Source: a virus (taxonomy: Duplodnaviria > Heunggongvirae > Uroviricota > Caudoviricetes). Taken from it: DNA of 15,351 bases. The notes under the pieces are model-generated. The model was not told the origin of the DNA. It ran no database searches and saw nothing but the letters and a program-made list of their open reading frames with translations. Position numbers and translations under genes: made by a program. The stretch lies in IMG/VR virus record IMGVR_UViG_2609459769_000006; one strand, written 5' to 3'. This document shows, piece by piece, positions 880 through 15,351 of this stretch (the first letter of the stretch is position 1; the number at the start of each line of letters is the position of its first letter).

Positions 880-893
880 ACTTTTCCACCAAT

Positions 894-1030: not shown

Positions 1031-1630
1031 TCAGAAACGGTATCCGATACCAACAATAAATGCATCCGTTCGCCAGTCGCCACTACCGGAACCTTCATAA
1101 GCAAGGTCAATGGTCACGGATTCGGTCGGGTTAAACTGCACGCCAGCCCCCCACGCCAGAGACGTGTTGCTGTGGCGACCGTCATCACTTCCGGTCAGCA
1201 CATCGTGCGTTTTCCCCTTGTTGTCAGTTACGCGGAGATAATCCCCGGAGAAAGTCGACACACGGCTGTAAGCCACACCCGCCATCGCATACGCGCTGAA
1301 CCATTCATTCACGCGTACAGACGGCCCCGCCATCACGCTGAACCAGCGGTTACGCACGGAATCTTCATGCCAGCGGGTATCGCTGTAGCGCGTTTTTTGC
1401 TCATCCTCAGCATTGGCATAACTGAAGGACGTAATCAGCCCCAGCGCGTCCGTAAACTCATAACGGTATTTCACGTTAATCCCGTTCAGATCATCACTAC
1501 CGGGAACGTTCGTCGAGGCATGGAGATACCCCGCGCTCAGCGTGGACTGATGTTCTGCTGCACTCGCTGGCGTAGCAGCGGCGACCTGCCAGACTACTGC
1601 GGACAAAATAACAGCACATAATTTACGCAT
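1031..1630 (-). CDS. lom: Lom outer-membrane protein (Ail/Lom family beta-barrel)
   Basis: 199-aa ORF MRKLCAVILSAV...HQSTLSAGYLHASTNVPGSDDLNGINVKYRYEFTD...AYEGSGSGDWRTDAFIVGIGYRF: signal peptide plus near-identity to my recollection of lambda Lom, ending in aromatic residue typical of OM beta-barrels; GAGAGG SD upstream of ATG 1630. Confidence 0.9.
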   Translation of the reverse strand: MRKLCAVILSAVVWQVAAATPASAAEHQSTLSAGYLHASTNVPGSDDLNGINVKYRYEFTDALGLITSFSYANAEDEQKTRYSDTRWHEDSVRNRWFSVMAGPSVRVNEWFSAYAMAGVAYSRVSTFSGDYLRVTDNKGKTHDVLTGSDDGRHSNTSLAWGAGVQFNPTESVTIDLAYEGSGSGDWRTDAFIVGIGYRF

Positions 1631-1654
1631 AATTACCTCTCGCTTTTCTGCAAT

Positions 1655-1678
1655 AAAAAAGGCGCCATTTCTGGCGCC
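1655..1678 (-). terminator. Putative intrinsic terminator between J fragment and lom
   Basis: Plus strand A-run 1655-1660 then GGCGCCA-tttc-TGGCGCC perfect 7-bp inverted repeat (1661-1678); on minus strand a hairpin followed by T-run, located after the J stop (1698) and just before the lom RBS. Confidence 0.5.
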
Positions 1679-1697
1679 CGTATCTGGGTTATAAAAT

Positions 1698-3068: not shown

Positions 3069-3408
3069 TCAAAACTATGAACTGATTGTGAAAGGGATCC
3101 GCAATTTTGAGAATAAAGTTACGGTAACTTTAGCGTTACGGGACAAAAAACGCTTTGACGGTGAAATTTTTGACCTGGACATCTCGCTGGACCGTGTTGA
3201 AGGTGCCGCGCTGGAGTTTTATGAGGCAGCAGCCAGAAGGAGCATCAGACAGGTCTTCCTGGATGTTGCTGCCGGGTTATGTGAAGGGGATGAGCAGTCG
3301 CCGGAAAAGCGCCCCGTAATTTTAGAGGCGCAGGATGTGTTGATAACCTACAGAGGAAAACTACCGGGAATAATTACGGGTTCTCTGAAGAGTCCGCCGA
3401 AATGGTAA
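3064..3408 (+). CDS. Hypothetical protein (114 aa), sits at the J truncation junction
   Basis: ORF with GGGGAGAG SD-like sequence 7 nt upstream of ATG 3064; soluble-looking protein; no family recognised. Confidence 0.45.
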
Positions 3409-3646
3409 TTTTACCAGCATATTTTTCATCCAGTAATACAGCAAGCCGCCTGAAAGAGTCTTGTTGTTCCTGAGACCATTTGGGATTGCATGATTCAAAC
3501 TGGATTGATGCCAGCGTTGATTGCATCTGTTCCCTTGGAATTGAGAATGCCAGATATGAGAAGGCGACGGTAAGGGTATTCACGTCTTCCCGAAGCCTGG
3601 AAATGCTGTCGAGCAACTCCTGTAGAGAAATGGTGTTATTGTCCAT
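3374..3646 (-). CDS. Hypothetical protein (90 aa)
   Basis: ORF with GAGGAT SD 6 nt upstream of ATG 3646; 3' end overlaps the 3' end of the convergent 114-aa ORF by 35 nt; no family recognised. Confidence 0.4.
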   Translation of the reverse strand: MDNNTISLQELLDSISRLREDVNTLTVAFSYLAFSIPREQMQSTLASIQFESCNPKWSQEQQDSFRRLAVLLDEKYAGKITISADSSENP

Positions 3647-3751
3647 AAATAATCCTCATGATTGTATTGACCTGTTAGCAGCCTGAGGCAACAGGCTGGA
3701 ACTGATAAACATATCCAGGGCTCAGAAACCGATAAATCCTGATAAATATCC

Positions 3752-4315
3752 ATGAACGCAAAAATCAGATACGGCCTGTCGGCTGCCGTTCTGGCGCTGA
3801 TTGCCGCTGGTGCGCCTGCGCCTGACATTCTCGACCAGTTTCTGGATGAAAAGGAAGGTAACCACACCACGGCATACCGTGATGGCGCGGGTATCTGGAC
3901 CATCTGCCGCGGTGCCATCCTGGTGGATGGCAAACCTGTCGTTCCGGGCATGAAGTTGTCGAAGGAAAAATGCGACCGGGTTAACGCCATTGAGCGTGAT
4001 AAGGCGCTGGCATGGGTGGAGAAAAACATCAGAGTGCCATTGAGTGAACCCCAGAAACGGGTGATCACCGGGATTGCGTCAACGCCTTCTCCGGATCGGG
4101 ATGGTGACATCCTGGAGCCGGAGGGCGCGGAGTTTGGCAGTGCGATCCCGTTTCTCTGGCAGCATGACCATTCCCGCCCGGTGGGGCAGTGTACGGTACG
4201 CCGGGTCAGCGAAGGGCTGGAAATCACGGCAACACTGGTGAAGCCCGTACCGGATATGCCGTCGCAACTGGCTGCCCGGCTGCCGGGCCAGCCACTCCAT
4301 TCAGTTTCGGAGTAA
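3752..4315 (+). pseudogene. Chimeric remnant: SAR-endolysin (GH24 phage lysozyme) N-terminus fused in frame to a prohead protease (HK97-type) N-terminal fragment
   Basis: Residues 1-105 (nt 3752-4066): signal-anchor-like LSAAVLALIAAGA followed by lysozyme catalytic E-8aa-D-5aa-T pattern (EGNHTTAYRDGAGIWT). Residues from about 106 (nt 4067-4315): IASTPSPDRDGDILEPEGAEF...PFLWQHDHSRPVGQ, resembling the N-terminus of caudoviral prohead proteases. Too short for either full enzyme; no holin upstream; no clear SD. Confidence 0.55.
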
Positions 4316-5309
4316 CCGTGGCACTGCCGGCGGTGAACACCAGCTCCAGCGTCTGCCAGTCGTTACTGTAATTCCCGAACTCGCCCAACTTTGTGTTTCC
4401 TGCTTTCCTGTGATGCATCAGATTCAGTTTGCCGTCTGTGGTCTGGGTGAAGAACGACATCAGGAACGGGTTACCAGTCCCGGTCATCGTCACGACGTCA
4501 GGTAACGCTACATCGGTATACAGATAAATTCCCAGACCGAACTGGTTGTTGGTCAGTGCGCCTGACAGTCGAAACTTACAGCTCAGTCTGCCACCCCGTG
4601 TCAGCAGGGAGACTGCGTCATCCACCGGATGCATCAGGGACCAGGTTTTATTGCTCTGCTTGGTAACCTTAAACACACCATCTTCCAGCGCAACACTGCC
4701 GCCGGTGATGGTCCAGCCCTGCGCAGCAGCCTCTCCGGCTGTCGGCAGCAGGGAGACTGTACGAACGGATGTGTCACCATCAGACGGCCCCGATGGCGTG
4801 TCGCCGCCGGGCGAGGGTTTAATCTCCGGTGCGGTACCGCTGATGAAGGCGCTGGTTCGACCAACTGCGTTCAGAATAGCGGTTGCCAGGCGATCCGAAA
4901 TAATGCCCCTGCGCGCCCATGAACTGAAATGTGTCGGACGATTTGACGATACCCAATTACCATTACTACGGGATTGCGCGCCGTAATAACCTGCATCAGC
5001 AATATCCGGGTCTTCTGCCGGTAAGTTGGTGGGCGTGTTGTTGCCGTTACCGTCGGTCATGAACGGCACAAAGAAAACGTTGTCGCTCTCCCTGTTTTTG
5101 TACGCGCCGTAGACGGAGTCATACTGTGTGCCGTATGTGTTTTTCCAGTAATACGTCGTGTCGCCACAAATCCACGGTACAACTGCAGCACTGCCGCCAT
5201 GGCACTGCGCCGCCAGCCCGGCAAGGTCAGCACGGAACTGCTGTACCATTGCAAGAAATGCTGCTGGCTGCTGGGCGTACCAGAACAGATCGAAGTAATA
5301 CCCGCACAT
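4224..5309 (-). CDS. Hypothetical two-domain protein (361 aa): Cys/aromatic-rich N-domain, Pro/Ser/Gly linker, C-terminal Gly/Thr-rich probable beta-rich domain
   Basis: Longest and most protein-like ORF in this GC-rich stretch; start ATG overlaps the stop of the upstream 92-aa ORF in a TAATG arrangement (5305-5309), suggesting translational coupling; linker PEIKPSPGGDTPSGPSDGDTS. No family recognised. Confidence 0.6.
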   Translation of the reverse strand: MCGYYFDLFWYAQQPAAFLAMVQQFRADLAGLAAQCHGGSAAVVPWICGDTTYYWKNTYGTQYDSVYGAYKNRESDNVFFVPFMTDGNGNNTPTNLPAEDPDIADAGYYGAQSRSNGNWVSSNRPTHFSSWARRGIISDRLATAILNAVGRTSAFISGTAPEIKPSPGGDTPSGPSDGDTSVRTVSLLPTAGEAAAQGWTITGGSVALEDGVFKVTKQSNKTWSLMHPVDDAVSLLTRGGRLSCKFRLSGALTNNQFGLGIYLYTDVALPDVVTMTGTGNPFLMSFFTQTTDGKLNLMHHRKAGNTKLGEFGNYSNDWQTLELVFTAGSATVTPKLNGVAGPAAGQPVATAYPVRASPVLP

Positions 5310-5587
5310 TACCTCCAGATCCGTTGCTGGAATGTGCGGGACGGACGCGCTGGCCGTTCTGAGTAAGGGAGCCTGACGGAGATTATCCAGTGACGGTAGT
5401 CGAGGCTAAGGGCTTTTTTAACCTCGCATCCGCGCCCGCGGTAACACTGAATGAGCCATTCAGCCTGTTCTTCGGTGCAGGGGTCGTGCTGATACCAGTC
5501 AGATTTGAATGCATGAGAACGCCGCCCGTGCCTGCTGGCAGGGGCGGCAGAGTTATCCGAATTGTAAAATTTGGTATCGTGCGCCAT
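5309..5587 (-). CDS. Hypothetical protein (92 aa), first gene of a coupled pair
   Basis: ATG at 5587; stop overlaps start of the 361-aa ORF (TAATG). Contains Cys-containing segment DPCTEEQAEWLIQCYRGRGC. Weak SD. Confidence 0.5.
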   Translation of the reverse strand: MAHDTKFYNSDNSAAPASRHGRRSHAFKSDWYQHDPCTEEQAEWLIQCYRGRGCEVKKALSLDYRHWIISVRLPYSERPARPSRTFQQRIWR

Positions 5588-5854
5588 CTGTTTTCTCTGC
5601 TGGCGCAGCAGGTGCCAGTTGTTCAGGCTGACGTATGAAGTATAAATAAACTGGCTCCAGTGTAAAGCCCCACCTTAATGGAATAAAAACCAAACAACAG
5701 ATTGCTGGGATAAAAATACAACGCTTATTATTAAAAGCGGTTAGATAAATTAAATTTTAATGTTATGCAAATCTGCCAGATTAGCATAATATTTCATTTG
5801 AAAACCGCTGAAATAACAATCTTATCGGGATTAATCATATTAAGGTGAGTAAAT

Positions 5855-5941
5855 ATGGAAAACAACAAATCTGCACATTACGCTCCTTTTTTATCTGTAA
5901 TACTTTTTGTATTTTGTTGTGTATGGGCGGTATTTTTATAA
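5855..5941 (+). CDS. Candidate small hydrophobic peptide (28 aa, MENNKSAHYAPFLSVILFVFCCVWAVFL)
   Basis: Not in supplied ORF track (below size cutoff). AAGGTGAG SD at 5842-5849, 5 nt before ATG 5855; polar N-terminus then 17 hydrophobic residues; stop TAA 5939-5941 followed 20 nt later by a hairpin terminator; lies in AT-rich intergenic DNA convergent with the protease gene. Codons verified by hand. Confidence 0.3.
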   Translation: MENNKSAHYAPFLSVILFVFCCVWAVFL

Positions 5942-5961
5942 AACACACCCACAAATAAATC

Positions 5962-5981
5962 AAACCCGCTACAGCGGGTTT
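5962..5981. terminator. Putative bidirectional intrinsic terminator
   Basis: Perfect 8-bp inverted repeat AAACCCGC-taca-GCGGGTTT; T-rich sequence follows on both strands (plus: gatttatat; minus: gatttatttgtgggtgtgtttt). Positioned between the protease stop (5996-5998) and the small plus-strand ORF stop (5939-5941). Confidence 0.5.
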
Positions 5982-5995
5982 GATTTATATAGTTG

Positions 5996-8260
5996 TTATA
6001 CGGAAACTGGCACACGAGCAGGCAATGGATAGTGAGCCCAGTTATTAGCATTTAAAGCTCTTACGCCATCAGCATAAACTTGTGTGTTTCCATCTAATGA
6101 TTTTAAAGTTACTACAATAGTTACAGGTAAAGGCTCCATTAAGGCCGGTTCATTCGCTCTCAACGTTGTTTTAGCTTGAAGAGCCCAGTTACCCGAAGTA
6201 ATTCCTTTATTAAATGCCTTGCGATGAATTTTTACTGGTGACCACTTTCCACCATGCTCAATTTGAGCTCTCTCATATCCAGATTGACCGTTTTCTCCTT
6301 CCATAGGTACTTTTCCTTTTATAGTATTATTCTCAATTAAGCCAAAACTTAGCTCTACGTTCGCGCGAACATATTCACTGCCGGCATTAGGGTTCAGTGG
6401 TGGTGCATATGCAGCAGTAATTACAATCTCACCTTTAAATTTTCCATTTTGAATAAGTGCCGATGGTATGGGATAGTTTTCCTTTCTCCACCTCACCCCA
6501 GGAACCAAGAATGTTTGGAAAATCAGAGTAAACCTATCATCACTATCATATAAGGTCTCAATAACCTCATTAGGAATTCCCGCTCCCAAATAGCGTCTTT
6601 CACTTGGCGAGTAATCAGGAGAAGATAATTGAGCGGAATGAATTAATAATGCTTTAATCAATGATGGTGAAACATTAAAGTCTGAATTAGTGGCTATTCT
6701 CTGCCATGTATGCGCAGCTAAACTTGCCACAATTGGAGCAGCAAAACTAGTACCAAAATTAGAGCAAAGCCTATTATCTGGCCCTACGACCTTTAAACTG
6801 CTTGCTCCTACATTCCAAGGTCTATGAACCCCACCGCCAGCATGGATTATATCTGGCTTTGGAGTAAATACAGGCCCAGGGCCACGACGAGTATATGGTG
6901 TCGGTGTTCCAATTTCACTTAAAGCATCATTAGCTTCCATATGAGAAACTGAACCAACTGTTAGTGCTCGGACTGACTCTCCAGGAGAGGAAATTAAATC
7001 AGCACCTCCAAGCGGATCAGGATTTGGCCATGTACGTATAGGTTCATCTACATAATTACCTGCAGCAACTACAAACAAAATACCAAATTTATCGCTGAGC
7101 CGATCTAACTCCATCGCAAAATCACTAAACATCTGCTCATTACATGGTCCGCCTCCCAAAGATAAATTCCAGACTTTTATATCTGGTCTTTTATTTACAG
7201 CATCTGCTAGCCTCAGAATTAAATCTGATATATAAGATCCATTTTCATCTAAAGCACAAACATCATGGATTTTAGATTTTGTATCAGGAATCCATGGATG
7301 ATTGTCATTTAAAAAATGAGCGCCTGATATCAATGAAGACACCATAGTCCCATGTTCATAACTCGTATCAGGAGGAATTACGTATGTTTCCCTACTCACT
7401 ACCCAAGGAGTAATTGTTGCCGCGATGGGGCTTACCCCAGTGTCAAATACAGCAACAATGGGTAATTCTTCTGATGGTACGGGAAAGCTATTTGTTTCAA
7501 TGCCAACAGAATCACTTACACTAACCGGGAATGCTGAATATTTTGGTTCTGGAATTAACGTTCTTATACCCGGGTAATCAATGAGAATGTCTAATATATA
7601 TCTATCATTTGGGGATAAATCCATTATCCTTAATAAGGGAAGACCACATTTTGGTCTAATCTCATCATATTTAACTCCGTGTTGTTCTAATATAGAAATA
7701 ACGTTTTCATAGTTGTTGTAAGTTGCATCTTCACCTGTGTACTCAAATAGTCGTACAAGGATGTTTGATGATTCAAACAAACCATCAGTGCCTCCTGGAA
7801 CCTTCCTATTCTCATCCCAAGGTTCAATGCGCTCAATCGCGCTTAGATTAGCCAAAATCGCTTTAATATTCCGATGTAAAATGACTGACTCTAATACGTC
7901 AAAACAGCCGGCATGAGCAGCAACCAACATTTCATCTATTTTGGCATGACCGGCATTTTGCAATCCAGCCTCTTGAGCAATTTTGTTCGGCCTATGCGTT
8001 TTGGCTATTCCCTGGTCTCTTAATTTGAAAACCAAAGTACCCAAGCTTCCAGGGTACTCTGAAAGTTTGGATTCTAAATAATGTTTACTGGTTGTTAAAT
8101 TTCTTACTAGCCCTTGTCTATATTCGGCTGTTACATCAACCAATACCTTTGCCCCACCGCCAGCGTTTACTATTGCACCCAAGTCACTACTGGAAAAAGG
8201 GATTCTTAACATTGGGTTTGTAACTTTTGCGTTACTAAACTGTGTACCCCTTCTGCTCAT
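5996..8260 (-). CDS. Large subtilisin-like serine protease (peptidase S8 fold) with uncharacterised N- and C-terminal extensions, 754 aa
   Basis: Canonical subtilase order and motifs: Asp in VAVFDTGV (D273), His in YEHGTMVSS (H303), oxyanion Asn in VVAAGN (N401), Ser in GTSFAAP (S505). About 255 residues before and about 195 after the catalytic domain with no recognised motifs. ATG 8260 preceded by AGGAG; start overlaps ATPase stop by 26 nt. AT-rich codon usage. Confidence 0.85.
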   Translation of the reverse strand: MSRRGTQFSNAKVTNPMLRIPFSSSDLGAIVNAGGGAKVLVDVTAEYRQGLVRNLTTSKHYLESKLSEYPGSLGTLVFKLRDQGIAKTHRPNKIAQEAGLQNAGHAKIDEMLVAAHAGCFDVLESVILHRNIKAILANLSAIERIEPWDENRKVPGGTDGLFESSNILVRLFEYTGEDATYNNYENVISILEQHGVKYDEIRPKCGLPLLRIMDLSPNDRYILDILIDYPGIRTLIPEPKYSAFPVSVSDSVGIETNSFPVPSEELPIVAVFDTGVSPIAATITPWVVSRETYVIPPDTSYEHGTMVSSLISGAHFLNDNHPWIPDTKSKIHDVCALDENGSYISDLILRLADAVNKRPDIKVWNLSLGGGPCNEQMFSDFAMELDRLSDKFGILFVVAAGNYVDEPIRTWPNPDPLGGADLISSPGESVRALTVGSVSHMEANDALSEIGTPTPYTRRGPGPVFTPKPDIIHAGGGVHRPWNVGASSLKVVGPDNRLCSNFGTSFAAPIVASLAAHTWQRIATNSDFNVSPSLIKALLIHSAQLSSPDYSPSERRYLGAGIPNEVIETLYDSDDRFTLIFQTFLVPGVRWRKENYPIPSALIQNGKFKGEIVITAAYAPPLNPNAGSEYVRANVELSFGLIENNTIKGKVPMEGENGQSGYERAQIEHGGKWSPVKIHRKAFNKGITSGNWALQAKTTLRANEPALMEPLPVTIVVTLKSLDGNTQVYADGVRALNANNWAHYPLPARVPVSV

Positions 8261-9389
8261 ATGCTCCTGACTCCTTCAGAATGTTTGAAATTACTCTTGA
8301 TGTAAGTTTGTACAAATTAGCAAGAACTCTGATAGAAAATAATTTTTTATCTTTAGAACGTAACCAACGAATTTCATCTTCGTAAGTGCTTAAATTTACA
8401 CCTTCCATAAGCGATTGCGCAAGATACAAACGCCTATACAATTTATGGTGATTTATCACACTTGCACCTTCAATAACTGCATCCCTACGTGCATCCAAGC
8501 TCACCTGTTCAATTATTGCTCCGGATAATCCCTCCGATTTTCTTGATAAATCACTTAAATCTAGATCGCTACATATCATATTCTTTAAACGATTTTTCCA
8601 AATTAACTCTCTCTGATGTATGTCAGGCAGAGGCATTGGAATTCTGAAGCTAAATCGCCTCCAGATTGCAGGATCCAGAAGTTGCTCATGGTTAGTTGAG
8701 GCAATAATTACCGTATCCTCTGATGCCGCATCCATATTCTGCAATAGTGAAATGACAACTCGCTGAAGCTCACCTATATCTCTCTCATTACCTCTTGCTC
8801 CAGCTAAAGCATCAAATTCGTCTAAAAAAAGCACTGATGGCCTCTGCATTACATAATCGAAAACCTGTCTAAGATTTTTGCTGGTTTGTCCCAATAAACT
8901 ACTAATCAAAGTATCGCAACGCACTGTAAGAAGTGGAAAATCTAAGCGGGTAGCGATGTACTTAGATAACATAGTCTTACCTGTTCCTGGCTTTCCATAC
9001 ACGAGCATACGACTCGGCAATGCTGCATCAGCTTTAACAAACTCATCATAACGTTGAACATTAGTGATAAACTCTTCAACACGGGTACTGATTGCTGCAG
9101 GCAGAAAAATCTCTGAACTGTCTAATTTAGGATAACTGACATCAACAGTGTTGAGTCGACTATCAATATCTACCGGTAATGAGCCCAGAGATATCCCACC
9201 TCCAGCCCTTTGAGCTCCTGCCAACGCCTGGGGAGCTCTAAGCAACCTTTCTCTTATCATTCTGGCTTGCTTGACCTCCCCTTTTTGTTCGAGCTTATCT
9301 GCCAGCAACCCAGCATAATTACTAGCCATCGAAGCATTTGCCTTTGTTGCACCTTCAATGATTTTTAACACTTCTGATAAATAATCCAT
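8235..9389 (-). CDS. AAA+ ATPase (classic AAA clade), 384 aa
   Basis: Walker A GKPGTGKT (res 132-139), Walker B VLFLDEFD (186-193), sensor-1 STN (231-233), second region of homology with arginine pair PAIWRRFSF (240-248). GGGAG SD 7 nt upstream of ATG 9389. 3' end overlaps protease start (operon). Confidence 0.85.
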   Translation of the reverse strand: MDYLSEVLKIIEGATKANASMASNYAGLLADKLEQKGEVKQARMIRERLLRAPQALAGAQRAGGGISLGSLPVDIDSRLNTVDVSYPKLDSSEIFLPAAISTRVEEFITNVQRYDEFVKADAALPSRMLVYGKPGTGKTMLSKYIATRLDFPLLTVRCDTLISSLLGQTSKNLRQVFDYVMQRPSVLFLDEFDALAGARGNERDIGELQRVVISLLQNMDAASEDTVIIASTNHEQLLDPAIWRRFSFRIPMPLPDIHQRELIWKNRLKNMICSDLDLSDLSRKSEGLSGAIIEQVSLDARRDAVIEGASVINHHKLYRRLYLAQSLMEGVNLSTYEDEIRWLRSKDKKLFSIRVLANLYKLTSRVISNILKESGAYEQKGYTV

Positions 9390-9582
9390 TCAACACTCCC
9401 ACAACAAAAAGCCACAGCAATCAAAAAATGAGCACACAGAATCAAAATACTCTCTAATCGTAACGCATTTTGAGATTTTTGATACGTTTTTTTGGGATTA
9501 TGTAACGCCAAATGGTCATTTTGTGTCAGAAAAATAAATCTTAGTACCGAGAATATGTAGCTTCCATCCTTCATCGTTCTAT
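9390..9582 (-). promoter_or_regulatory. AT-rich upstream region of the ATPase-protease operon (probable promoter region, not mapped)
   Basis: 193-nt AT-rich non-coding spacer between the stop of the 143-aa gene and the ATPase start; contains TTGATT/TTGATTG-like -35 candidates on the minus strand. No precise -10/-35 assignment claimed. Confidence 0.3.
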
Positions 9583-10014
9583 TCATCCCTGATCTCCAAG
9601 CCTCTCTCGAAAACCATTCTGATAAAACGCCAGCACACGCTGCATAACTTCGCTCTTCCGGCACTCGCGACAGATTATGTTCAGACGCCTGTCGTAGCGG
9701 CGTATTTCTCCGTCTGGTAATGACCAGATAAGGTCCGGATCAACCACAGATGGTTTCTTCACCTTTGCCCTGGATAGTTTTTTGCGGGCATTTTGCCAGT
9801 CCTTACGAGCCTGTTCAGACGGGAATAACCCGTAACCAGAGTTGTATACATCGCCACTGGCAACCAGCTCTCTGGCGAGAACGCTCATCAGATATCTTGT
9901 CGCACCTGTCTTGGCTTCCAGTTGCCGTAACGTCTCGCGCCCACTCCGGCGTACTAGCTCAACAACCTGCCCTTTAATTTTTTCCCGCTCTTCTTGTGTA
10001 AATACTTTTGCCAT
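9583..10014 (-). CDS. Hypothetical protein (143 aa from ATG 10014; ORF track used an upstream TTG), possible winged-helix N-terminus
   Basis: GGAGG SD 7 nt upstream of ATG at 10014-10012; begins MAKVFTQEEREKIKGQVVELVRRSG...; basic C-terminal half with single CxxC. Immediately follows the stop of the upstream gene (10030-10032). Confidence 0.5.
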   Translation of the reverse strand: MAKVFTQEEREKIKGQVVELVRRSGRETLRQLEAKTGATRYLMSVLARELVASGDVYNSGYGLFPSEQARKDWQNARKKLSRAKVKKPSVVDPDLIWSLPDGEIRRYDRRLNIICRECRKSEVMQRVLAFYQNGFRERLGDQG

Positions 10015-10029
10015 AAGCGCCTCCGGCAA

Positions 10030-10791
10030 TCACTTTTCCGATACAACACGGCGGGAAGAATCAGTAATCTGTCGAACAATATCCCGGTGCTTGTTCAGCT
10101 CCCGCAGCGCGGCGCAGACTCGCTCCCACTTCTGGACATGATTTTTCGCCCGACGCAGTTCGCGGTTTGCCATATGCAGTGATGGTAAAACCAGGTCATC
10201 CGCTCGCGTTTCAGTAAACGATGGCAGCGACTGCACAATGTCCGCCACAGTTTCTGTTTTAATATCTTCCTGTGTTGCAGCCTCCTGTACTGGTAACGCA
10301 ACACCTGCGGTATGAGGAAAGGCCTTACCATCAGTTTCCGCTACCGATGCTGCTTTCGGCTCTGCTGGTAAATTATCGCCCGGTATGCAGTAACGAAATT
10401 TACCGCCCTGATTTACGCGAATCAGACGACCTTTGCTGATTGCCATTGCCAGCGTTGAAGCCACTTTGCGTGATGTGGTACCAAACAATGTAGCCAGCTC
10501 ATCAGCCATTTGTGGTCCTCGTTGTTCAATCGTCGCGGTTAAATCGCACTCTGAGATTTTCGCTACTGTTGCTGTGGTGATTTCTTCCGGCAGTTCTGCC
10601 TGCGCTGGCTGTTCCTGCTGAACGTTGTTATCAGCCACACGCCAGGTGTACGCGCTTTTATCAACAAAACCAGCCTTTTTCAGTTCCCATAGTTCGTTCA
10701 GCACTTCTTCACGACTGATATCAAGTCGCGCAGCAAGTTCTATGGATGTGGCTTTTCCCATTGCTTTCAGTGCGTCAAAAACAGTCTCCAT
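10030..10791 (-). CDS. Hypothetical phage protein with apparent tandem winged-helix-like segments (253 aa from ATG 10791; alternative upstream ATG at 10842 gives 270 aa)
   Basis: GGGAGA SD 9 nt upstream of ATG 10791 and no overlap with DnaC-like gene; the longer start would overlap the upstream gene by 29 nt. N-terminus [43 protein letters not shown] resembles a wHTH. Occupies the YdaW position of Rac-type prophages. Confidence 0.55.
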
Positions 10792-10813
10792 TAAATTTTT
10801 CTCCCGGTAAAAA

Positions 10814-11560
10814 TTACTTCGCAATTCCTGGCTGGACGACATTCGGACGCCAGCTCTCCCAGTTAAAATTCACCCATAGCCCGCCGTTCATGGTCATGCG
10901 ATCCATAATCCGCTCGCCGAGCAATGTTTTCATGGCCTCATAGTTCAGGTTTGTCAGCATCCCCACGCTGCGCATCGACGCTGTCCGGCGATCAACAATC
11001 TGGTGCAGTACCACCTGCTCGTTTTTCGTCTCGCGCTGAATGCCAATTTCATCAAGAACCAGCAGATCCACTTCGCACAGTTCCCGCAAAAATTTTTCGC
11101 CTGACTGCCCATCGTCATAGCTGGCGTGGAGGGCACTCATAACATCAGCCACGGTAACCACAATCACTGTCTGACCGTCTTTCAGCAGGCGATTCCCGAT
11201 AGCTGCTGCTAAGTGGTTCTTCCCGGTACCAGGTTTTCCGCTAAACGCGAAATTTGTGCATCCGGTCATCAGTTCATCAGCGATAGATTTCGCCTGGCTC
11301 AACGCGTATCGCTGACCGTCGTTCTGCACCTGGTAATTCGCAAACGAGCATTTACGGTGCAACGGCTGGATGCCTGAGCGATTCAGAATTTTTTCCACCC
11401 GCAACTGGCGATTCAGGCGGTTGATCTCCTCGCTACGTTTCTGGCCTTCAGCAAGTTGCCACTCGTGCCACTCCGCTACCGTTCTGAATGGGGCGGTTAC
11501 ATGTGGCGGAGCCAGTCTTCGGATACGTTCAAGAACGCCGCCTGCCGCAATGTTTTTCAT
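10814..11560 (-). CDS. ydaV: DnaC-like replicative helicase loader (AAA+), Rac YdaV-like
   Basis: Walker [16 protein letters not shown], Walker [10 protein letters not shown], and C-terminal half closely resembling host DnaC ([23 protein letters not shown]). Symbol assigned by synteny, size and recollection, not by alignment. Confidence 0.8.
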
Positions 11561-11566
11561 GACACG

Positions 11567-12529
11567 TCACCCCCTGAATCCCGGCGGTATTTCAGTGTCC
11601 GGTTCAGAAATGTGATTCACGCAACGCTGCGCAGGCAAACGCCCCAGGCGGATAACCAGTTCATCCCATTTTTCCCGGAGTTTTGCCGGACTCATGATGT
11701 TTTTTACCCAGAACGAATCCCGCTGGAGACGCCCAAACATTTCACAAATTTGTCTGTGAGTTCTGCCATCCAGCATCCGCATTGTGCGAACGTCATTGGC
11801 CCATGCTGTCCAGTTGGGTTCTTTCGGTCTAGTGATCTCGCCATCATAGCTGGCCGCCTGCTCGTAAAGACTCACGATTCGTCCCCAGATCCACTGTGCG
11901 CACACCAAATCTTCCTGACTTCCCCACTGGCGTTTTTTCGCACTGAACACAACCGCGTCAGGGTGTCGGGTTAAAAAATCCTGTTCAGCCGTCTGCGGGT
12001 CCGGTTGCGAAGCGTCCGGACAAGAAGATCTTTTATCTGACGGATCAGGTTTTAATACTGACGGATCGGGGTCAATCATCGGCCCCCTAATCGGCAGTTT
12101 TTTATCAACAGTTGATCCATCAAAATTTGACGGGTCAACCGTTGAGGGGTCAATATTTGACGGGTCAACTGTTAACGGGTCATTTTTTGCCGGGCTAATT
12201 TTTCTTTTCGGTTTATATGACTCACGCGCCGCCGCCGCAGCTGCTTCGAGTTTTTCCACATTAAGCCGATAGATATTGCTTACATTACGCCCACCGACCT
12301 TACGCTCTTCCTTCGTCAGCCAGCCCTCTTTCGCCAGTTCTGCAATAGCCGATTTCACTGTGGATTCACTTCTTGCACCGATCTGACGCCGGATAGTTTC
12401 AATGGCAGGCCATGACACGCCCTCGTCATTGCTGTAGTCTGCAAGACGGGCCATAACCGCCACCCTGGATAAGATCATGCCGGTGAAGGCGCACCCTTCC
12501 CAGACAAGACCATGAAGCTTGCTGCTCAT
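11567..12529 (-). CDS. Phage replication initiator protein (O-like / YdaU-like): N-terminal wHTH, repeat-encoded linker, C-terminal domain
   Basis: ORF track start at 12544 is GTG; an ATG at 12529 preceded by a G-run is used here. N-terminal HTH-like region (VSWPAIETIRRQIGARSESTVKSAIAELAKEGWL), linker with repeated DPSxxDPSTVDPSN motifs encoded by DNA direct repeats, stop 7 nt before DnaC-like start. Confidence 0.7.
   Translation of the reverse strand: MSSKLHGLVWEGCAFTGMILSRVAVMARLADYSNDEGVSWPAIETIRRQIGARSESTVKSAIAELAKEGWLTKEERKVGGRNVSNIYRLNVEKLEAAAAAARESYKPKRKISPAKNDPLTVDPSNIDPSTVDPSNFDGSTVDKKLPIRGPMIDPDPSVLKPDPSDKRSSCPDASQPDPQTAEQDFLTRHPDAVVFSAKKRQWGSQEDLVCAQWIWGRIVSLYEQAASYDGEITRPKEPNWTAWANDVRTMRMLDGRTHRQICEMFGRLQRDSFWVKNIMSPAKLREKWDELVIRLGRLPAQRCVNHISEPDTEIPPGFRG
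12037..12183. repeat. Iteron-like direct repeats inside the replication initiator gene (candidate origin of replication)
   Basis: Core TGACGG(A/G)TCA at 12038-12047, 12059-12068, 12128-12137, 12158-12167, with related GGGGTCAA / ACGGGTCA units between them at about 15-bp periodicity; several units are near-palindromic (TTGACGGGTCAA). Lambdoid ori iterons classically lie within the O-gene linker region. Confidence 0.5.
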
Positions 12530-12551
12530 AAACCCCCCGAACACCGTGCTT

Positions 12552-12977
12552 TTAGTGCATCACCACAGCATTCCCTGCCGGGCCGCCGCGATTCATCTGG
12601 TCATACAAAACAACCGCTGACGCAACAAAATCATCGACATCCTTCACCAGCCGATCCCTCCGTTCGACGATCTCACGGTAATATTCAGAACTGTGGCTGC
12701 GCATACGGGCCACCAGCAAAGGCGGCATCGCCTTTTCGATCGCCGGTAACAGAGCCTGCATTTTTTCAACAGCATCAGGGGTGTCTTTATCCAGCCAACG
12801 GAAAATTTTCTGGGTATTACGGGCCAGGGCTTCCGGATGGCTGTCGTCATACAGTTCCGGGAACGTCATTCCCAGCTCGAAATACGCTTTGGTAATTTTC
12901 GCAGCCGGCACTTTTTCGCCGTCCGGATGCGCCCAGACATTCATCGCCATGCGGATGTGTTCATGCTTGATTTTCAT
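12552..12977 (-). CDS. ydaT: YdaT-like protein (reported functional analogue of CII in Rac/CP-933P-type immunity regions), 141 aa
   Basis: Position directly after the Cro-like gene and before the replication genes; size about 140 aa; sequence MKIKHEHIRMAMNVWAHPDGEKVPAAK... matches my recollection of YdaT. AGGAG SD 8 nt upstream of ATG 12977. Not verified by alignment. Confidence 0.6.
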   Translation of the reverse strand: MKIKHEHIRMAMNVWAHPDGEKVPAAKITKAYFELGMTFPELYDDSHPEALARNTQKIFRWLDKDTPDAVEKMQALLPAIEKAMPPLLVARMRSHSSEYYREIVERRDRLVKDVDDFVASAVVLYDQMNRGGPAGNAVVMH

Positions 12978-13242
12978 GAATCAAGCTCCTAGAAAGTGGT
13001 TGTGTTAACGTTTTGGTATCTTCCAGCTCGGGCCAAATATTCATCCAATCAAAAGGCCTTAGTTGCTGACGTGTAACTTCACCATTACTGGCTCGCTCAA
13101 TAAGGACACATAACGATGCCCCTAACACTTGACCTTTACTCAATGCCTTTCTTAGATAACCGATGCTGGTACCACACTCGCATGCAAACATACGCTGTTC
13201 ATCTGACGAAAGAGAATTGAGAAATATTCTTAATTCTTCCAT
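12961..13242 (-). CDS. ydaS: Cro-like HTH regulator (YdaS-like), 93 aa
   Basis: First gene of the rightward-type operon, divergent from repressor; AAGGAG SD 6 nt upstream of ATG 13242; HTH-like segment CGTSIGYLRKALSKGQ. Symbol by synteny. Confidence 0.6.
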   Translation of the reverse strand: MEELRIFLNSLSSDEQRMFACECGTSIGYLRKALSKGQVLGASLCVLIERASNGEVTRQQLRPFDWMNIWPELEDTKTLTQPLSRSLIHENQA

Positions 13243-13342
13243 AGCTACTCCTTAGTAAACACAGCAAAGAATACCCACAGGTAAACAAAAGTCAATACCC
13301 ACAGGTTGTTTACCTTGCGGTAATCGCATCTATTATTTACCT
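13243..13342. promoter_or_regulatory. Divergent promoter/operator region (OR-like) between Cro-like gene and repressor
   Basis: Three copies of a 12-mer, consensus TACC(C/T)A(C/T)(A/G)GG(T/A)(A/T): 13272-13283 TACCCACAGGTA, 13296-13307 TACCCACAGGTT, 13339-13350 TACCTATGGACA (overlaps repressor start codon). Minus-strand promoter candidate TTGACT (plus coords 13290-13295), 16-nt spacer, TATTCT (13268-13273). Plus-strand TATTAT at 13331-13336 only 6 nt before the repressor ATG. Confidence 0.55.
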
Positions 13343-13762
13343 ATGGACAAATATGAATTTAGACGACAGCAACTCATCAAAATTCGTGATGAGAAATGCG
13401 ATGGTAAAGCGGTTAACGTGGCCAGAAAGATCGGGCGCGAGCCTTCTTATGTATCAAGAATGTTGTACCCAGAGGGGAAAAAGGGAAAAAAACGGATCGC
13501 TGATGATATGGTGGAGATTATCGAAGAGTCCTTTGGGTTACCCCGGGGATGGATGGATGGTATCGTTTCATCATCAACGAACACAGCCTCCAGTTATGAA
13601 ACAAGGGTTCTAACGCCACGACAACGTATTTTTTTAGATCTCTTAGACGAACTGCCAGAAAGTGAAGCGGATAAATTATTAAAAACTCTTGAAGAGAAAA
13701 AACAGTATTACAATATGATCTACGAAGAAATCCGTAAAAAGAAAGCACAAAACGCATCATAG
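13343..13762 (+). CDS. Prophage repressor (CI functional analogue, RacR-like), HTH N-terminus, no LexA-type peptidase domain
   Basis: 139-aa ORF divergent from Cro-like gene; HTH-like GKAVNVARKIGREPSYVSRMLY; C-terminus charged/coiled-coil-like without the Ser/Lys dyad region of S24 autopeptidases; flanked on both sides by operator-like 12-mers. No in-frame upstream start exists. Confidence 0.7.
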   Translation: MDKYEFRRQQLIKIRDEKCDGKAVNVARKIGREPSYVSRMLYPEGKKGKKRIADDMVEIIEESFGLPRGWMDGIVSSSTNTASSYETRVLTPRQRIFLDLLDELPESEADKLLKTLEEKKQYYNMIYEEIRKKKAQNAS

Positions 13763-13804
13763 CTCACCAAACAACTAGTCACCAGTTAAGACACCGCAAA
13801 AATT

Positions 13805-13841
13805 TACCCATGGGTATTTACTTTTTAAATACCTATGGGTA
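13805..13841. promoter_or_regulatory. OL-like operator pair / candidate leftward-type promoter downstream of repressor gene
   Basis: Perfect palindrome TACCCATGGGTA (13805-13816) and TACCTATGGGTA (13830-13841), 25 bp centre to centre, same consensus as the OR sites; plus-strand TTTACT (13817-13822), 17-nt spacer, TATCCT (13840-13845) as a possible promoter overlapped by the second site. Confidence 0.45.
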
Positions 13842-13946
13842 TCCTTCTTTTCATACCAACCCACCCCGCCCCACAGAATGCAGGGCAATACTTCGAGTTA
13901 CCAGGCAGTGGTCAGGGGTTAAGTAGCCAGCCCGAGGCGTAAGAAC

Positions 13947-14180
13947 ATGACGGCAGGGTTCAACTTTAATAACTATGCAGCAGGTTTTTGTTCCGCTACC
14001 CCGGCGTTAAGGGGAAATGAGGTCAACATGGATATGCTCAATCTTGGCAACAACGAATCTCTGGTATGTGGCGTGTTCCCCAACCAGGACGGCACGTTTA
14101 CCGCGATGACGTATACCAGAAGCAAAACGTTTAAAACTGAAGCTGGCGCGCGTCGCTGGTTAACCAGAAACACTGACTGA
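13947..14180 (+). CDS. Small hypothetical protein (77 aa; alternative start ATG 14028 gives 51 aa)
   Basis: ORF downstream of the OL-like sites; internal ATG at 14028 has a GAGG SD 5 nt upstream. Stop TGA overlaps the next ATG (TGATG at 14178-14182). Occupies the ydaF/ydaG-like position of Rac-type prophages; no sequence recognition. Confidence 0.4.
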   Translation: MTAGFNFNNYAAGFCSATPALRGNEVNMDMLNLGNNESLVCGVFPNQDGTFTAMTYTRSKTFKTEAGARRWLTRNTD

Positions 14181-14593
14181 TGAGGTTGACGATGGAATTT
14201 AAAGATTTACCAGTACCATTCCAGGAAATGGCATCGAATGTGGTTCGCTCTCAACTGGCGACTCTTGACCTGAGTACCGTAGAAAAAGAAACCATCGATA
14301 CTATATCCGGTAACGTGCGTCGTGCCTTTATAGGTCTGTATGAAGAGAAGCGCCTATTCGGCGGACAGAATTCGCCTGAAAACAAGAATCAAGCAAATGA
14401 TGAGAAGCTGAAACACATTATCGCCTTACTTTTGGAAGACGCAAAACGTCTACAGCAACTGGAACCAAATGCAGGCACAGAGGCCCGCATTTGGATTGCC
14501 ATGAAATCACTCAAATGTGAAAGCAGTGATTATTTCAAAACAACAATTAAAACTACTCAACTTTCGGGAGAGCTACTGAAGAAATTGCCATAA
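14180..14593 (+). CDS. Hypothetical protein (137 aa)
   Basis: Start coupled to upstream stop (TGATG); alternative ATG at 14192 with GAGG SD. No family recognised. Confidence 0.5.
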   Translation: MRLTMEFKDLPVPFQEMASNVVRSQLATLDLSTVEKETIDTISGNVRRAFIGLYEEKRLFGGQNSPENKNQANDEKLKHIIALLLEDAKRLQQLEPNAGTEARIWIAMKSLKCESSDYFKTTIKTTQLSGELLKKLP

Positions 14594-14831
14594 GAGCATG
14601 GTCTTTCTCTTGTTCTGCAAGATGAGCATTAATACCTGGTATGGTTTTTTCAAATTTATCTATCTGTTGAATAACAACTTCGCGGTATACGTTTGTTTTT
14701 GTACCACCAAGCGCAGCCGTTAATGCAGAAAGCATATTTAGTATCATATCAGTGCGATATGAAAGAATCCTGATAGCTTCATCTTGTTTTTCAATAATAG
14801 ATTGCAGGGCCTCAATTTGCTTTTTATCCAT
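14553..14831 (-). CDS. Hypothetical protein (92 aa from ATG 14831; ORF track used an upstream GTG), coiled-coil-like
   Basis: AGGAGG SD 5 nt upstream of ATG at 14831-14829; convergent with, and overlapping by 41 nt, the 3' end of the 137-aa gene. Confidence 0.45.
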   Translation of the reverse strand: MDKKQIEALQSIIEKQDEAIRILSYRTDMILNMLSALTAALGGTKTNVYREVVIQQIDKFEKTIPGINAHLAEQEKDHALMAISSVALPKVE

Positions 14832-15351
14832 TTCACCCTCCTGAGGGTTGGTAATTAAGGAGTTCTCCACGGGTCAGGTGGAGTGCGTGCGCCGGACACG
14901 GGTGAACATCCGGCACTGACAGTTTACTGAAAGGATATGTCCCTGAAAAGTCAGGGCATAACGCGAAAGCGCACGGCGAAATTGGTCTCTCTGTACGGTG
15001 TCGTTAAATTTAGTTCGACCGTGCGCTTCCGGTTGTGGCAATCCGCGAAATGGTGCGGCGGTAAGTATGGCGGGGTTATTCCTTCCCCCGTTGAGGACAC
15101 CGGGTTGTCAGGTTGACCATACGCTTAAGTGACAACCCCGCTGCAACGCCCTCTGTTATCAATTTTCTGGTGACGTTTGGCGGTATCAGTTTTACTCCGT
15201 GACTGCTCTGCCGCCCTTTTTAAAGTGAATTTTGTGATGTGGTGAATGCGGCTGAGCGCACGCGGAACAGTTAAAACCAAAAACAGTGTTATGGGTGGAT
15301 TCTCTGTATCCGGCGTTAATTGTTAACTGGTTAACGTCACCTGGAGGCACC

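What the first reader, a model, noticed from the sequence alone, without database searches (positions are those of the whole stretch)
12552..13762. RacR / YdaS / YdaT-type immunity module, a known repressor-controlled toxic gene set
The arrangement (repressor divergent from a Cro-like gene followed by a roughly 140-aa YdaT-like gene) matches the Rac immunity region. In E. coli K-12, racR has been reported as essential because it represses toxic ydaS/ydaT expression. If the same holds here, this region behaves as an addiction-like module stabilising the prophage remnant and its cargo.
Basis: established knowledge. Interest (0 to 1): 0.4.

Follow-up and report, generated by a model that had tools for sequence, protein, structure and literature searches.

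The report
Lambdoid prophage immunity switch, not toxin module
This is an ordinary lambda-style prophage on/off switch (repressor, Cro-like protein and a CII-like activator called YdaT) in an E. coli prophage remnant. It resembles the Rac module in layout only, and its YdaT is identical over the crystallised residues (2-141) to a protein that published tests found non-toxic.

Summary
The three genes are at the stated coordinates: repressor 13343-13762 (+), diverging from a Cro-like gene 12961-13242 (-), followed by a 141-aa YdaT gene 12552-12977 (-).

- **Rac label:** only partly right. The repressor has no similarity to RacR. The Cro-like protein is a weak YdaS relative, below the Pfam cut-off. 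YdaT is 31% identical to Rac YdaT.
- **YdaT:** residues 2-141 are 100% identical to the crystallised CP-933P YdaT. That protein is a CII-equivalent activator, was reported non-toxic, and cannot activate rcsA, the route of Rac YdaT toxicity. Its TTGATT-N6-AATCAA box lies over the ydaT start codon.
- **Not a fixed pair:** the identical YdaT occurs with three different repressor/Cro cassettes, so it is not tied to one upstream partner as an antitoxin-toxin pair would be.
- **This cassette:** it has phage mEp043-type specificity. The Cro is 73% identical and the repressor DNA-binding domain 76% identical. Both elements have the same TACC-N4-GGTA operators, three between the genes and two downstream of the repressor. 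The repressor's C-terminal domain is DicA/PaaR2-type, with no S24 cleavage domain.

The repressor may still be conditionally essential, most plausibly because it silences DicF (and probably DicB) and the replication genes. There is no toxin-antitoxin pair, unlike CP-933P. This is a new member of a known kind and of low interest.

The parts
13343..13762 (+). CI-equivalent repressor, 139 aa. It has a helical HTH DNA-binding domain (residues 1-72), a disordered linker (76-87) and a C-terminal helical hairpin (92-138). It has no S24 peptidase domain.
   Evidence: ORF. No Pfam hit. PHROG 5736 'transcriptional regulator', E 6e-70. N-terminal domain 76% identical to phage mEp043 cI. C-terminal domain 72.5% identical to phage Tritos CI, 33% to DicA and 28% to PaaR2. 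The NCBIfam DicA model matches only residues 86-136. AlphaFold2 model, pLDDT 85.
13309..13336 (+). P_RM-like promoter (TTTACC-16-TATTAT). The -10 hexamer ends 6 nt before the repressor ATG and there is no Shine-Dalgarno sequence, so a leaderless mRNA is predicted.
   Evidence: Promoter scan and sequence. mEp043 has the same geometry, TAGAAT followed by 6 nt and then ATG. Leaderless paaR2 was shown experimentally in CP-933P (PMC8630535). Inferred here.
13272..13322 (.). O_R-like operator cluster of three TACC-N4-GGTA palindromes at 13272-13283, 13296-13307 (1 mismatch) and 13311-13322, with spacings of 24 and 15 bp. The sites overlap P_R and P_RM.
   Evidence: (4 exact sites in the window against 0.14 expected; 0 of 200 shuffles reach 4). 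mEp043 has the same motif and layout, with spacings of 25 and 15 bp.
13268..13295 (-). P_R-like promoter (TTGACT-16-TATTCT) driving the Cro-like gene, ydaT and the replication genes. An AAGGAG Shine-Dalgarno sequence precedes the ATG at 13242.
   Evidence: Promoter scan; sequence.
12961..13242 (-). Cro-equivalent, 93 aa (YdaS/Cro superfamily HTH).
   Evidence: 73% identical to mEp043 Cro, E 4e-40. 36% identical to CP-933P YdaS, E 5e-17. Only 15/28 residues match K-12 YdaS. Pfam YdaS_toxin 25.8 bits, below the cut-off of 30. PHROG 35 'transcriptional repressor'.
12967..12984 (.). YdaT-box / O_M operator, TTGATTTTCATGAATCAA. It spans the ydaT start codon and is also the left edge of the block shared with other cassette types.
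   Evidence: The only exact match in the window. Footprinted for the identical protein (PMC9986795). Present at the ydaT start in every ydaT locus fetched, including Rac, and absent from Qin and mEp043. The mosaic junction is seen in alignment A1.
12552..12977 (-). YdaT, 141 aa: a CII-equivalent tetrameric POU-type activator of a reverse (P_RE-like) promoter for the repressor.
   Evidence: Residues 2-141 are 100% identical to PDB 8bt1, CP-933P YdaT. Pfam PF06254, 40.9 bits against a cut-off of 21. PHROG 163 'CII-like transcriptional activator', E 3e-47. 31% identical to K-12 YdaT.
13805..13845 (+). O_L/P_L-like region. Two exact TACC-N4-GGTA palindromes lie at 13805-13816 and 13830-13841, 25 bp apart. 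They flank and overlap a weak promoter, TTTACT (13817-13822), 17 nt, TATCCT (13840-13845), that points into the leftward arm.
   Evidence: The region aligns with the window's P_R and with mEp043 O_L. mEp043 has two sites 25 bp apart in the equivalent place. The promoter is inferred; it is below the scan threshold.
14028..15216 (+). Start of the leftward (P_L) arm: a DUF1391 gene (14028-14180), a 137-aa ORF of unknown function (14180-14593) and DicF sRNA (15164-15216). dicB would begin about 40 bp past the window end in the closest relative.
   Evidence: Pfam DUF1391. Rfam DicF 76.7 bits against a cut-off of 48. The 53-nt DicF is identical to K-12 DicF. TUM14664 annotation.
10814..12544 (-). 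Rightward-arm replication genes downstream of ydaT: an O-like initiator (11567-12544) and a DnaC-like loader (10814-11560).
   Evidence: PHROG 391 'replication initiation O-like', E 3e-114, and PHROG 50 'DnaC-like helicase loader', E 3e-83. Pfam IstB_IS21.

Best explanation
The region is the immunity (lysis/lysogeny) switch of a lambdoid prophage, retained intact in a scrambled remnant.

- **Repressor.** The 139-aa protein is the CI equivalent. It binds TACC-N4-GGTA operators in the 100-bp divergent promoter region and in a second cluster downstream of its own gene. This shuts off P_R (Cro-like gene, ydaT, O-like and DnaC-like replication genes, then iteA/iteS) and P_L (DUF1391 gene, DicF, probably dicB). 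It probably autoregulates its own leaderless transcript from P_RM.
- **Cro equivalent.** The 93-aa protein acts on the same operators.
- **YdaT.** It is the CII equivalent. As a tetramer it binds the TTGATT-N6-AATCAA box over its own start codon and activates a reverse promoter that boosts repressor synthesis.
- **Chimeric repressor.** It joins an mEp043-cI-type DNA-binding domain to a DicA/PaaR2/Tritos-type C-terminal helical domain in place of an S24 self-cleavage domain. RecA-stimulated autocleavage is therefore not expected. How repression is relieved is unknown.

Shown here: gene identities, homologies, motif positions and mosaicism. Shown in the literature for the identical protein: YdaT DNA binding, promoter activation and lack of toxicity. 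Inferred: repressor and Cro binding to the proposed operators, the promoter assignments, leaderless translation and oligomerisation through the C-terminal domain.
For: - **YdaT identity.** Identical to the crystallised CP-933P YdaT. Its footprinted operator is present once, exactly, at the ydaT start (PMC9986795).
- **Cassette swapping.** The identical YdaT is found next to three different cassettes, with the O-like replication gene downstream of ydaT in every locus and the DnaC-like loader in most: PaaR2-PaaA2-ParE2 with YdaS, an S24-type CI with P22-type Cro, and the present 139-aa/93-aa pair. The homology break lies exactly at the YdaT-box.
- **mEp043 relationship.** The Cro-like protein is 73% identical and the repressor N-terminal domain 76% identical to Cro and cI of phage mEp043.
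- **Operators.** mEp043 has the same operator motif in the same 3+2 layout. The window has 4 exact sites against 0.14 expected, all in the two predicted places. Phage Tritos, which has a different DNA-binding domain, has different repeats in the same positions.
- **Promoters.** The only two promoter-like sites in the 1.7-kb region scanned (12400-14100) are the expected divergent pair, and both overlap operators.
- **C-terminal domain.** It matches DicA, PaaR2 and Tritos CI.
- **Domain architectures.** The DNA-binding domain occurs in the databases mostly fused to Peptidase_S24, and in a minority with the short C-terminal domain.
- **Literature.** PaaR2/YdaS/YdaT act as CI/Cro/CII (PMC8630535). 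RacR/YdaS/YdaT do likewise (PMC5917428, PMC11879457).
Against: - No binding or expression data exist for this repressor/Cro pair.
- The proposed P_L has only 8 of 12 consensus matches and fell below the scan threshold.
- The YdaT-dependent reverse promoter was not located in the window.
- No inducing signal or antirepressor was found. There is no LexA box near the module and no Rem homologue.
- The Foldseek matches of the repressor model are generic XRE-type HTH proteins (best E 1.8e-3, TM 0.44).
- The prophage is a remnant, so the switch may no longer control a lytic programme.
Confidence: 0.85

Rival explanations
1. One reading: a Rac-type 'repressor-controlled toxin' set. The 93-aa and 141-aa proteins are themselves toxins, the repressor is essential because it silences them, and the trio acts as an addiction module that stabilises the remnant.
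For: The gene order matches Rac. The Pfam family names are 'YdaT_toxin' and 'YdaS_toxin'. K-12 racR is reported essential, with toxic ydaS/ydaT expression (PMC5700373, PMC5700377). Rac YdaT is toxic through RcsA (PMC11014345, PMC11879457).
Against: The repressor is not a RacR homologue. The protein identical to this YdaT showed no toxicity (PMC8630535) and cannot activate the rcsA promoter (PMC11879457). The identical YdaT is paired with three unrelated Cro/repressor cassettes, which is not expected for a cognate toxin partner. In CP-933P the addictive element is paaA2-parE2, and that pair is absent here. Loss of the whole linked module would remove repressor and targets together, so no post-segregational killing follows.
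Confidence: 0.06
2. A weaker form of the addiction idea, compatible with the best explanation. The repressor is conditionally essential, as DicA is in Qin, because losing it derepresses the division inhibitors of the leftward arm (DicF, and dicB if present) and in-situ replication from the O-like and DnaC-like genes of a remnant that cannot complete a lytic cycle.
For: A DicF identical to K-12 DicF lies in the leftward arm at 15164-15216. dicB follows immediately in the closest relative. The replication genes are intact. The Q/late region is deleted. DicA represses the toxic dicBF operon and scores as essential (PMC10448788, PMC11481867). [quoted passage not shown]
Against: Not tested. dicB, int and xis lie outside the window, so their state in this genome is unknown. 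In Rac, loss of repressor triggers excision, which rescues the cell (PMC11014345). There may be terminators between P_L and DicF, and no N-type antiterminator was identified in the window.
Confidence: 0.5
3. The module is a decayed, non-functional relic with no regulatory role.
For: The surrounding prophage is scrambled. It has a 5.85-kb deletion that removes Q and the nin region, an inverted lysis segment and chimeric ORFs.
Against: All three ORFs, the five operators, both promoters and the YdaT-box are intact. The region is 99.98-100% identical to the same region in apparently complete prophages. It is conserved in 813 complete genomes.
Confidence: 0.07

Closest known systems
CP-933P (Sp12) immunity region of E. 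coli O157:H7: PaaR2 / YdaS / YdaT (PMC8630535, PMC9986795)
   Same: YdaT is identical over residues 2-141 and has the same O_M box. The replication genes downstream are near-identical. The Cro-like protein is 36% identical to CP-933P YdaS. The repressor is a distant PaaR2 relative (23% over 90 aa, E 8e-9), also lacks an S24 domain, and its -10 hexamer sits 6 nt before the ATG, the geometry expected for a leaderless mRNA, as shown experimentally for paaR2. Both have O_R and O_L clusters.
   Different: There is no paaA2-parE2 toxin-antitoxin pair after the repressor. The operators differ: TACC-N4-GGTA here against the GTTTAGTAA-type repeats of CP-933P. The repressor's DNA-binding domain is of another type.
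Rac prophage RacR / YdaS / YdaT of E. coli K-12
   Same: The gene order is the same. YdaT is a homologue (31% identity). The YdaT-box over the ydaT start differs by 1 nt (PMC11879457). The roles are CI/Cro/CII-like (PMC5917428).
   Different: The repressor is unrelated to RacR. The Cro-like protein is barely similar to YdaS. Rac YdaT is toxic through rcsA, whereas the protein identical to the window's YdaT is not (PMC11879457, PMC8630535). The leftward arm here is Qin-like (DUF1391, DicF), not Rac-like (ydaG, ydaF, sieB, kilR).
Phage mEp043 cI / Cro
   Same: The Cro is 73% identical and the repressor DNA-binding domain 76% identical, including an identical EPSYVSRMLYPEGK segment. The TACC-N4-GGTA operators are the same, in the same 3+2 arrangement.
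   Different: mEp043 cI is 228 aa and carries a Peptidase_S24 domain. Its CII is lambda-type (PF05269), not YdaT.
Qin prophage DicA / DicC with the ydfA-ydfB-ydfC-dicF-dicB arm
   Same: The repressor is short and non-cleavable, and its C-terminal domain is 33% identical to that of DicA. The leftward arm carries a DUF1391 gene and an identical DicF.
   Different: The DNA-binding domain is not DicA-like (no HTH_3 hit). The Cro-like protein is not DicC-like (E 0.054). No Rem antirepressor homologue was found. Qin has no YdaT.
Phage Tritos (OV696610) immunity region
   Same: The gene order is the same on both arms. Tritos has a 139-aa CI whose C-terminal domain is 72.5% identical, a 141-aa YdaT-family protein with the same box, and DicF/dicB on the left.
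   Different: The DNA-binding domain (HTH_3 type), the Cro and the operator repeats all differ.

Membership tests
Rac RacR/YdaS/YdaT module | Repressor homologous to RacR | tested here: not met
   BLASTP against K-12 RacR gives a best local match of 4/7 residues, E 2.3.
Rac RacR/YdaS/YdaT module | Cro-like protein belongs to the YdaS family (PF15943) | tested here: inconclusive
   Pfam 25.8 bits against a gathering score of 30. 15/28 residues match K-12 YdaS, E 1e-6. However, it is 36% identical (E 5e-17) to CP-933P YdaS, which is a PF15943 member.
Rac RacR/YdaS/YdaT module | YdaT-family protein (PF06254) directly after the Cro-like gene | tested here: met
   Pfam 40.9 bits against a cut-off of 21. 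31% identity over the full length to K-12 YdaT, E 6e-15.
Rac RacR/YdaS/YdaT module | YdaT-box inverted repeat over the ydaT start codon | tested here: met
   TTGATTTTCATGAATCAA at 12967-12984. The Rac locus has its box at L001 5678-5695, over the ydaT ATG.
Rac RacR/YdaS/YdaT module | YdaS/YdaT expression is toxic, making the repressor essential | not testable with these tools
   Literature on the identical YdaT reports no toxicity (PMC8630535) and no rcsA activation (PMC11879457).
CP-933P-type immunity region (PaaR2/YdaS/YdaT) | YdaT and its O_M operator | tested here: met
   100% identity to PDB 8bt1 over residues 2-141. Exact operator present.
CP-933P-type immunity region (PaaR2/YdaS/YdaT) | PaaR2-family repressor | tested here: inconclusive
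   23% identity over 90 aa, E 8e-9 in a pairwise search. The PaaR2 N-terminal-domain structures (7nkv, 8c3k) were not recovered by sequence or among the top 50 fold matches.
CP-933P-type immunity region (PaaR2/YdaS/YdaT) | paaA2-parE2 toxin-antitoxin pair downstream of the repressor | tested here: not met
   The next gene is a DUF1391 gene, and no ParE or PaaA2 domain was found. Compare L004.
Lambda-type immunity switch (functional class) | Divergent promoters overlapped by a cluster of three operators, plus a second operator cluster at a leftward promoter | tested here: met
   The same layout is present in phage mEp043. This rests on sequence only; binding was not shown.
Lambda-type immunity switch (functional class) | Repressor with a LexA-like S24 autocleavage domain | tested here: not met
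   No Peptidase_S24 hit. The C-terminal domain is a 50-residue helical hairpin. S24-bearing relatives share only the DNA-binding domain.
Type II toxin-antitoxin pair (as the Pfam names YdaS_toxin/YdaT_toxin imply) | Conserved cognate pairing of the two genes | tested here: not met
   The identical YdaT lies downstream of three different genes: a 100-aa YdaS, a 71-aa P22_Cro-type protein and the 93-aa protein. The 93-aa and P22-type proteins share no similarity.
Qin DicA/DicC module | Full-length DicA homologue | tested here: not met
   NCBIfam DicA model scores 24.5 bits against a cut-off of 101 and matches only residues 86-136. BLASTP matches only the C-terminal 46 aa.

The most novel reading that the evidence does not exclude
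The 139-aa repressor is a natural domain swap. It joins an mEp043-type, SOS-cleavable-CI DNA-binding domain to a DicA/PaaR2-type non-cleavable oligomerisation domain. This would give the host a permanently 'locked', SOS-insensitive repressor with three effects. It would keep DicF/DicB and in-situ replication silent. It would help retain the IteAS defence cargo. It would also give superinfection immunity against mEp043-specificity phages. In that reading the switch has been domesticated and is not just a leftover.
Probability: 0.25. Interest if true: 0.35.

Novelty: new member of a known kind. Interest (0 to 1): 0.2.

Why it matters
The main value is as a correction. The Pfam and RefSeq 'toxin YdaT' label and the Rac analogy invite a toxin/addiction reading, and published experiments on the identical protein contradict that reading. 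Correctly read, the locus is a common E. coli immunity cassette, present in about 15% of complete genomes, and its repressor/Cro specificity has not been studied. It probably controls DicF (and DicB) and sits upstream of the IteAS anti-phage system. It therefore bears on prophage-remnant stability, superinfection immunity and defence-gene expression, but it opens no new class of mechanism.

Tried and rejected
- **RacR homology:** rejected.
- **Full DicA or DicC membership:** rejected; only the repressor's C-terminal domain matches.
- **Antirepressor or induction route:**
  - There is no LexA box near the module; matches to CTGT-N8-ACAG are at chance level and lie elsewhere.
  - The 92-aa ORF at 5309-5587, which lies next to the DUF968 gene in relatives much as rem lies near the DUF968 gene ydfU in Qin, has no similarity to Rem.
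  - tblastn with Rem finds nothing in the window, in the EC958 and TUM14664 prophages or in Tritos.
- **Fold search of the repressor model:** it gave only generic XRE-type HTH matches. The best was the SPC32H Rep-Ant repressor 5d50 (E 1.8e-3, TM 0.44). This is too weak to argue for antirepressor control.
- **Sequenced phage carrying this exact cassette:** none in the phage collection; only ydaT matches, at 83-87% nucleotide identity.
- **P_RE-type reverse promoter:** not located. A TTGATT-17-TAGAAA candidate on the + strand at 12967-12995 is weak and did not pass the scan.
- **Transposon-essentiality data for this repressor in ST131/EC958:** not found. Only general statements on phage repressors and dicA were found.
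Full report
**Observation**

The window is E. coli prophage DNA. Positions 4281-15351 are 99.9-100% identical, in two collinear pieces, to a prophage in strain TUM14664. The finding's coordinates hold exactly three ORFs:
- a 139-aa ORF at 13343-13762 (+);
- a 93-aa ORF at 12961-13242 (-), divergent from the first across 100 bp;
- a 141-aa ORF at 12552-12977 (-), overlapping the 93-aa ORF by 17 nt.

RefSeq annotates the same three genes as 'hypothetical protein', 'transcriptional regulator' and 'toxin YdaT family protein'. The described arrangement is therefore real.

**Test against Rac**

I fetched the K-12 Rac region and compared the proteins.
- The repressor has no similarity to RacR (E 2.3).
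- The 93-aa protein matches YdaS over only 28 residues (15 identical, E 1e-6). It is below the Pfam YdaS gathering score (25.8 against 30).
- The 141-aa protein is a genuine YdaT homologue: 31% identity end to end, E 6e-15, and Pfam 40.9 bits against a cut-off of 21.

The Rac label holds for the layout and for YdaT. It does not hold for the repressor.

**What YdaT is**

Residues 2-141 are 100% identical to PDB 8bt1, the YdaT of cryptic prophage CP-933P of E. coli O157:H7. That protein is a tetrameric POU-type DNA binder. It footprints on a TTGATT-N6-AATCAA inverted repeat at the ydaS/ydaT junction (PMC9986795) and activates a P_RE-like promoter, so it acts as a CII equivalent (PMC8630535).

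The box occurs exactly once in the window, at 12967-12984, spanning the ydaT start codon. It is present at the ydaT start in every ydaT-bearing locus I fetched, including Rac. It is absent from Qin and from mEp043, which has a lambda-type CII.

Two published results bear directly on the 'toxic' premise.
- No toxic effect of CP-933P YdaT was detected (PMC8630535).
- CP-933P YdaT cannot activate the rcsA promoter (PMC11879457). Rac YdaT kills cells through RcsA (PMC11014345, PMC11879457).

**YdaT is not part of a fixed pair**

A look-up of contigs encoding the identical YdaT shows it downstream of three different cassettes:
- PaaR2-PaaA2-ParE2 with a 100-aa YdaS (the CP-933P type);
- a 238-aa HTH + Peptidase_S24 repressor with a P22-type Cro;
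- the 139-aa/93-aa pair seen here.

The same O-like replication gene follows ydaT in every locus, and the DnaC-like loader follows in most. A three-way DNA alignment places the homology break exactly at the YdaT-box. This is classical lambdoid module exchange. It argues against a cognate toxin/antitoxin relationship.

**The cassette in this window**

*Specificity.* The 93-aa protein is 73% identical to Cro of phage mEp043. Residues 1-72 of the repressor are 76% identical to the N-terminal domain of mEp043 cI, including an identical EPSYVSRMLYPEGK segment. mEp043 cI is a 228-aa protein with a Peptidase_S24 domain.

*Repressor C-terminal domain.* Residues 89-139 are instead 72.5% identical to the C-terminus of the 139-aa CI of phage Tritos, 33% to DicA and 28% to PaaR2. 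The NCBIfam DicA model matches only residues 86-136.

*Structure and database picture.* An AlphaFold2 model (pLDDT 85) shows a helical N-terminal domain, a disordered linker (76-87) and a C-terminal helical hairpin. A database search shows this DNA-binding domain mostly fused to S24 peptidase domains. A minority are short proteins like this one. The repressor is therefore a domain chimera without a self-cleavage domain.

**Operators and promoters**

- The motif TACC-N4-GGTA occurs exactly four times in 15.3 kb, against 0.14 expected (0 of 200 shuffles reach 4). Two sites lie in the divergent intergenic region and two lie 43-79 bp past the repressor stop. A one-mismatch copy completes a triplet at 13272, 13296 and 13311.
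- mEp043 has the same motif in the same 3+2 layout, with almost the same spacings: 25 and 15 bp, then 25 bp. Tritos, which has a different DNA-binding domain, has different repeats in the same places. The motif thus tracks the DNA-binding domain, which is good comparative evidence that these are the operators.
- The only two sigma-70-like sites in the 1.7-kb region scanned (12400-14100) are the expected divergent pair. P_R is TTGACT-16-TATTCT on the - strand and P_RM is TTTACC-16-TATTAT on the + strand, and each overlaps an operator. The count itself is not above chance; the placement is what matters.
- The P_RM -10 hexamer ends 6 nt before the repressor ATG and there is no Shine-Dalgarno sequence. 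mEp043 has the same geometry. This suggests a leaderless mRNA, as shown for paaR2 and known for lambda cI (PMC8630535).
- The downstream operator pair flanks a weak promoter. That segment aligns base-for-base with P_R and with mEp043 O_L, so it is a P_L/O_L equivalent.

**What the switch controls**

*Rightward (window - strand).* The order is the Cro-like gene, ydaT, an O-like initiator, a DnaC-like loader, DUF1627 and DUF977 genes, and then the IteA/IteS anti-phage system.

*Leftward.* The order is a DUF1391 gene, a 137-aa ORF of unknown function and DicF sRNA, which is identical to K-12 DicF. In the closest relative, dicB starts about 40 bp beyond the window end. This arm is Qin-like, not Rac-like.

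*State of the prophage.* It is a remnant. Relative to TUM14664 it lacks 5.85 kb carrying Q, RusA, the DUF968 gene, a methylase and tRNAs. A lysis segment is inverted. Only a tail-tip C-terminal fragment and lom remain of the late genes.

**Addiction**

There is no toxin-antitoxin pair here, whereas in CP-933P paaA2-parE2 is the addictive element (PMC8630535). The repressor may nevertheless be conditionally essential, as DicA is. [quoted passage not shown] Derepressed DicF/DicB and in-situ replication are the plausible killers, not YdaS/YdaT. I could not test this. I put it at about 0.5.

How repression would normally be lifted is unknown. There is no S24 domain, no LexA box near the module and no homologue of Rem, the DicA antirepressor.

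**Verdict**

The locus is a lambdoid CI/Cro/CII-type immunity switch. It combines mEp043-type specificity, a DicA/PaaR2-type non-cleavable repressor tail and the already characterised CP-933P YdaT. It is a new member of a known kind. It is common, being covered at 80% or more in 813 of 5426 complete E. coli genomes, and it has not been studied experimentally as a cassette. It offers no new mechanism, so interest is low (0.2).

Noticed in passing
window 5996-9389 (-): An intact IteA/IteS anti-phage system (AAA ATPase plus S8 peptidase). Both proteins score above the NCBIfam equivalog cut-offs. It sits in the early-right arm between the DUF977 gene and the deleted nin/Q region, so it could be read through from P_R.
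   Followed up: partly
window 15164-15216 (+): DicF sRNA, identical to K-12 DicF (Rfam 76.7 bits against a cut-off of 48). In the 100%-identical relative TUM14664, dicB begins about 40 bp beyond the window end. The leftward arm is therefore Qin-like.
   Followed up: yes
window 1-5600: A scrambled remnant. Relative to TUM14664 there is a 5.85-kb deletion at about 5277-5279 that removes Q, RusA, the DUF968 gene, a methylase and tRNAs. Segment 2997-4066 (DUF1327/YdfR gene and part of the lysozyme gene) is inverted. The ORF at 3752-4315 has a lysozyme N-terminus joined to a downstream segment that has no Pfam hit and, beyond about 4066, no match to TUM14664. A truncated esterase/DUF6645 ORF lies at 4224-5309. 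The tail-tip J C-terminus (1698-2978) and Lom (1031-1630) remain.
   Followed up: partly
window 12967-12984, and A1 columns ~463 onward: The boundary between the variable immunity cassette and the conserved ydaT-replication block falls exactly on the 18-bp YdaT-box in all three cassette types. The box is kept, with 1 nt difference, even in Rac, where YdaT is only 31% identical.
   Followed up: partly
window 13805-13851 (+): The two O_L palindromes can pair with each other (16-bp stem) and are followed by a T-rich run, so the terminator scan flagged them. The segment might also end the P_RM transcript, or this may only reflect two similar palindromes lying side by side.
   Followed up: no
window 14553-14870 (-): A 92-105-aa ORF (PHROG 18692, unknown function, no Pfam hit) lies antisense to and convergent with the leftward operon, overlapping the end of the 137-aa ORF. 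No LexA box lies upstream. Its role is unknown.
   Followed up: no
window 5309-5587 (-): A 92-aa ORF with no family hit. In relatives it lies next to the DUF968 gene, much as the rem antirepressor gene lies near the DUF968 gene ydfU in Qin, but it has no detectable similarity to Rem.
   Followed up: yes
window 13333-13346: A half-operator-like copy (TTATTTACCTATGG) overlaps the repressor start codon and resembles the left halves of the O_L sites. It may be a fourth, partial site, or it may be a chance match.
   Followed up: no
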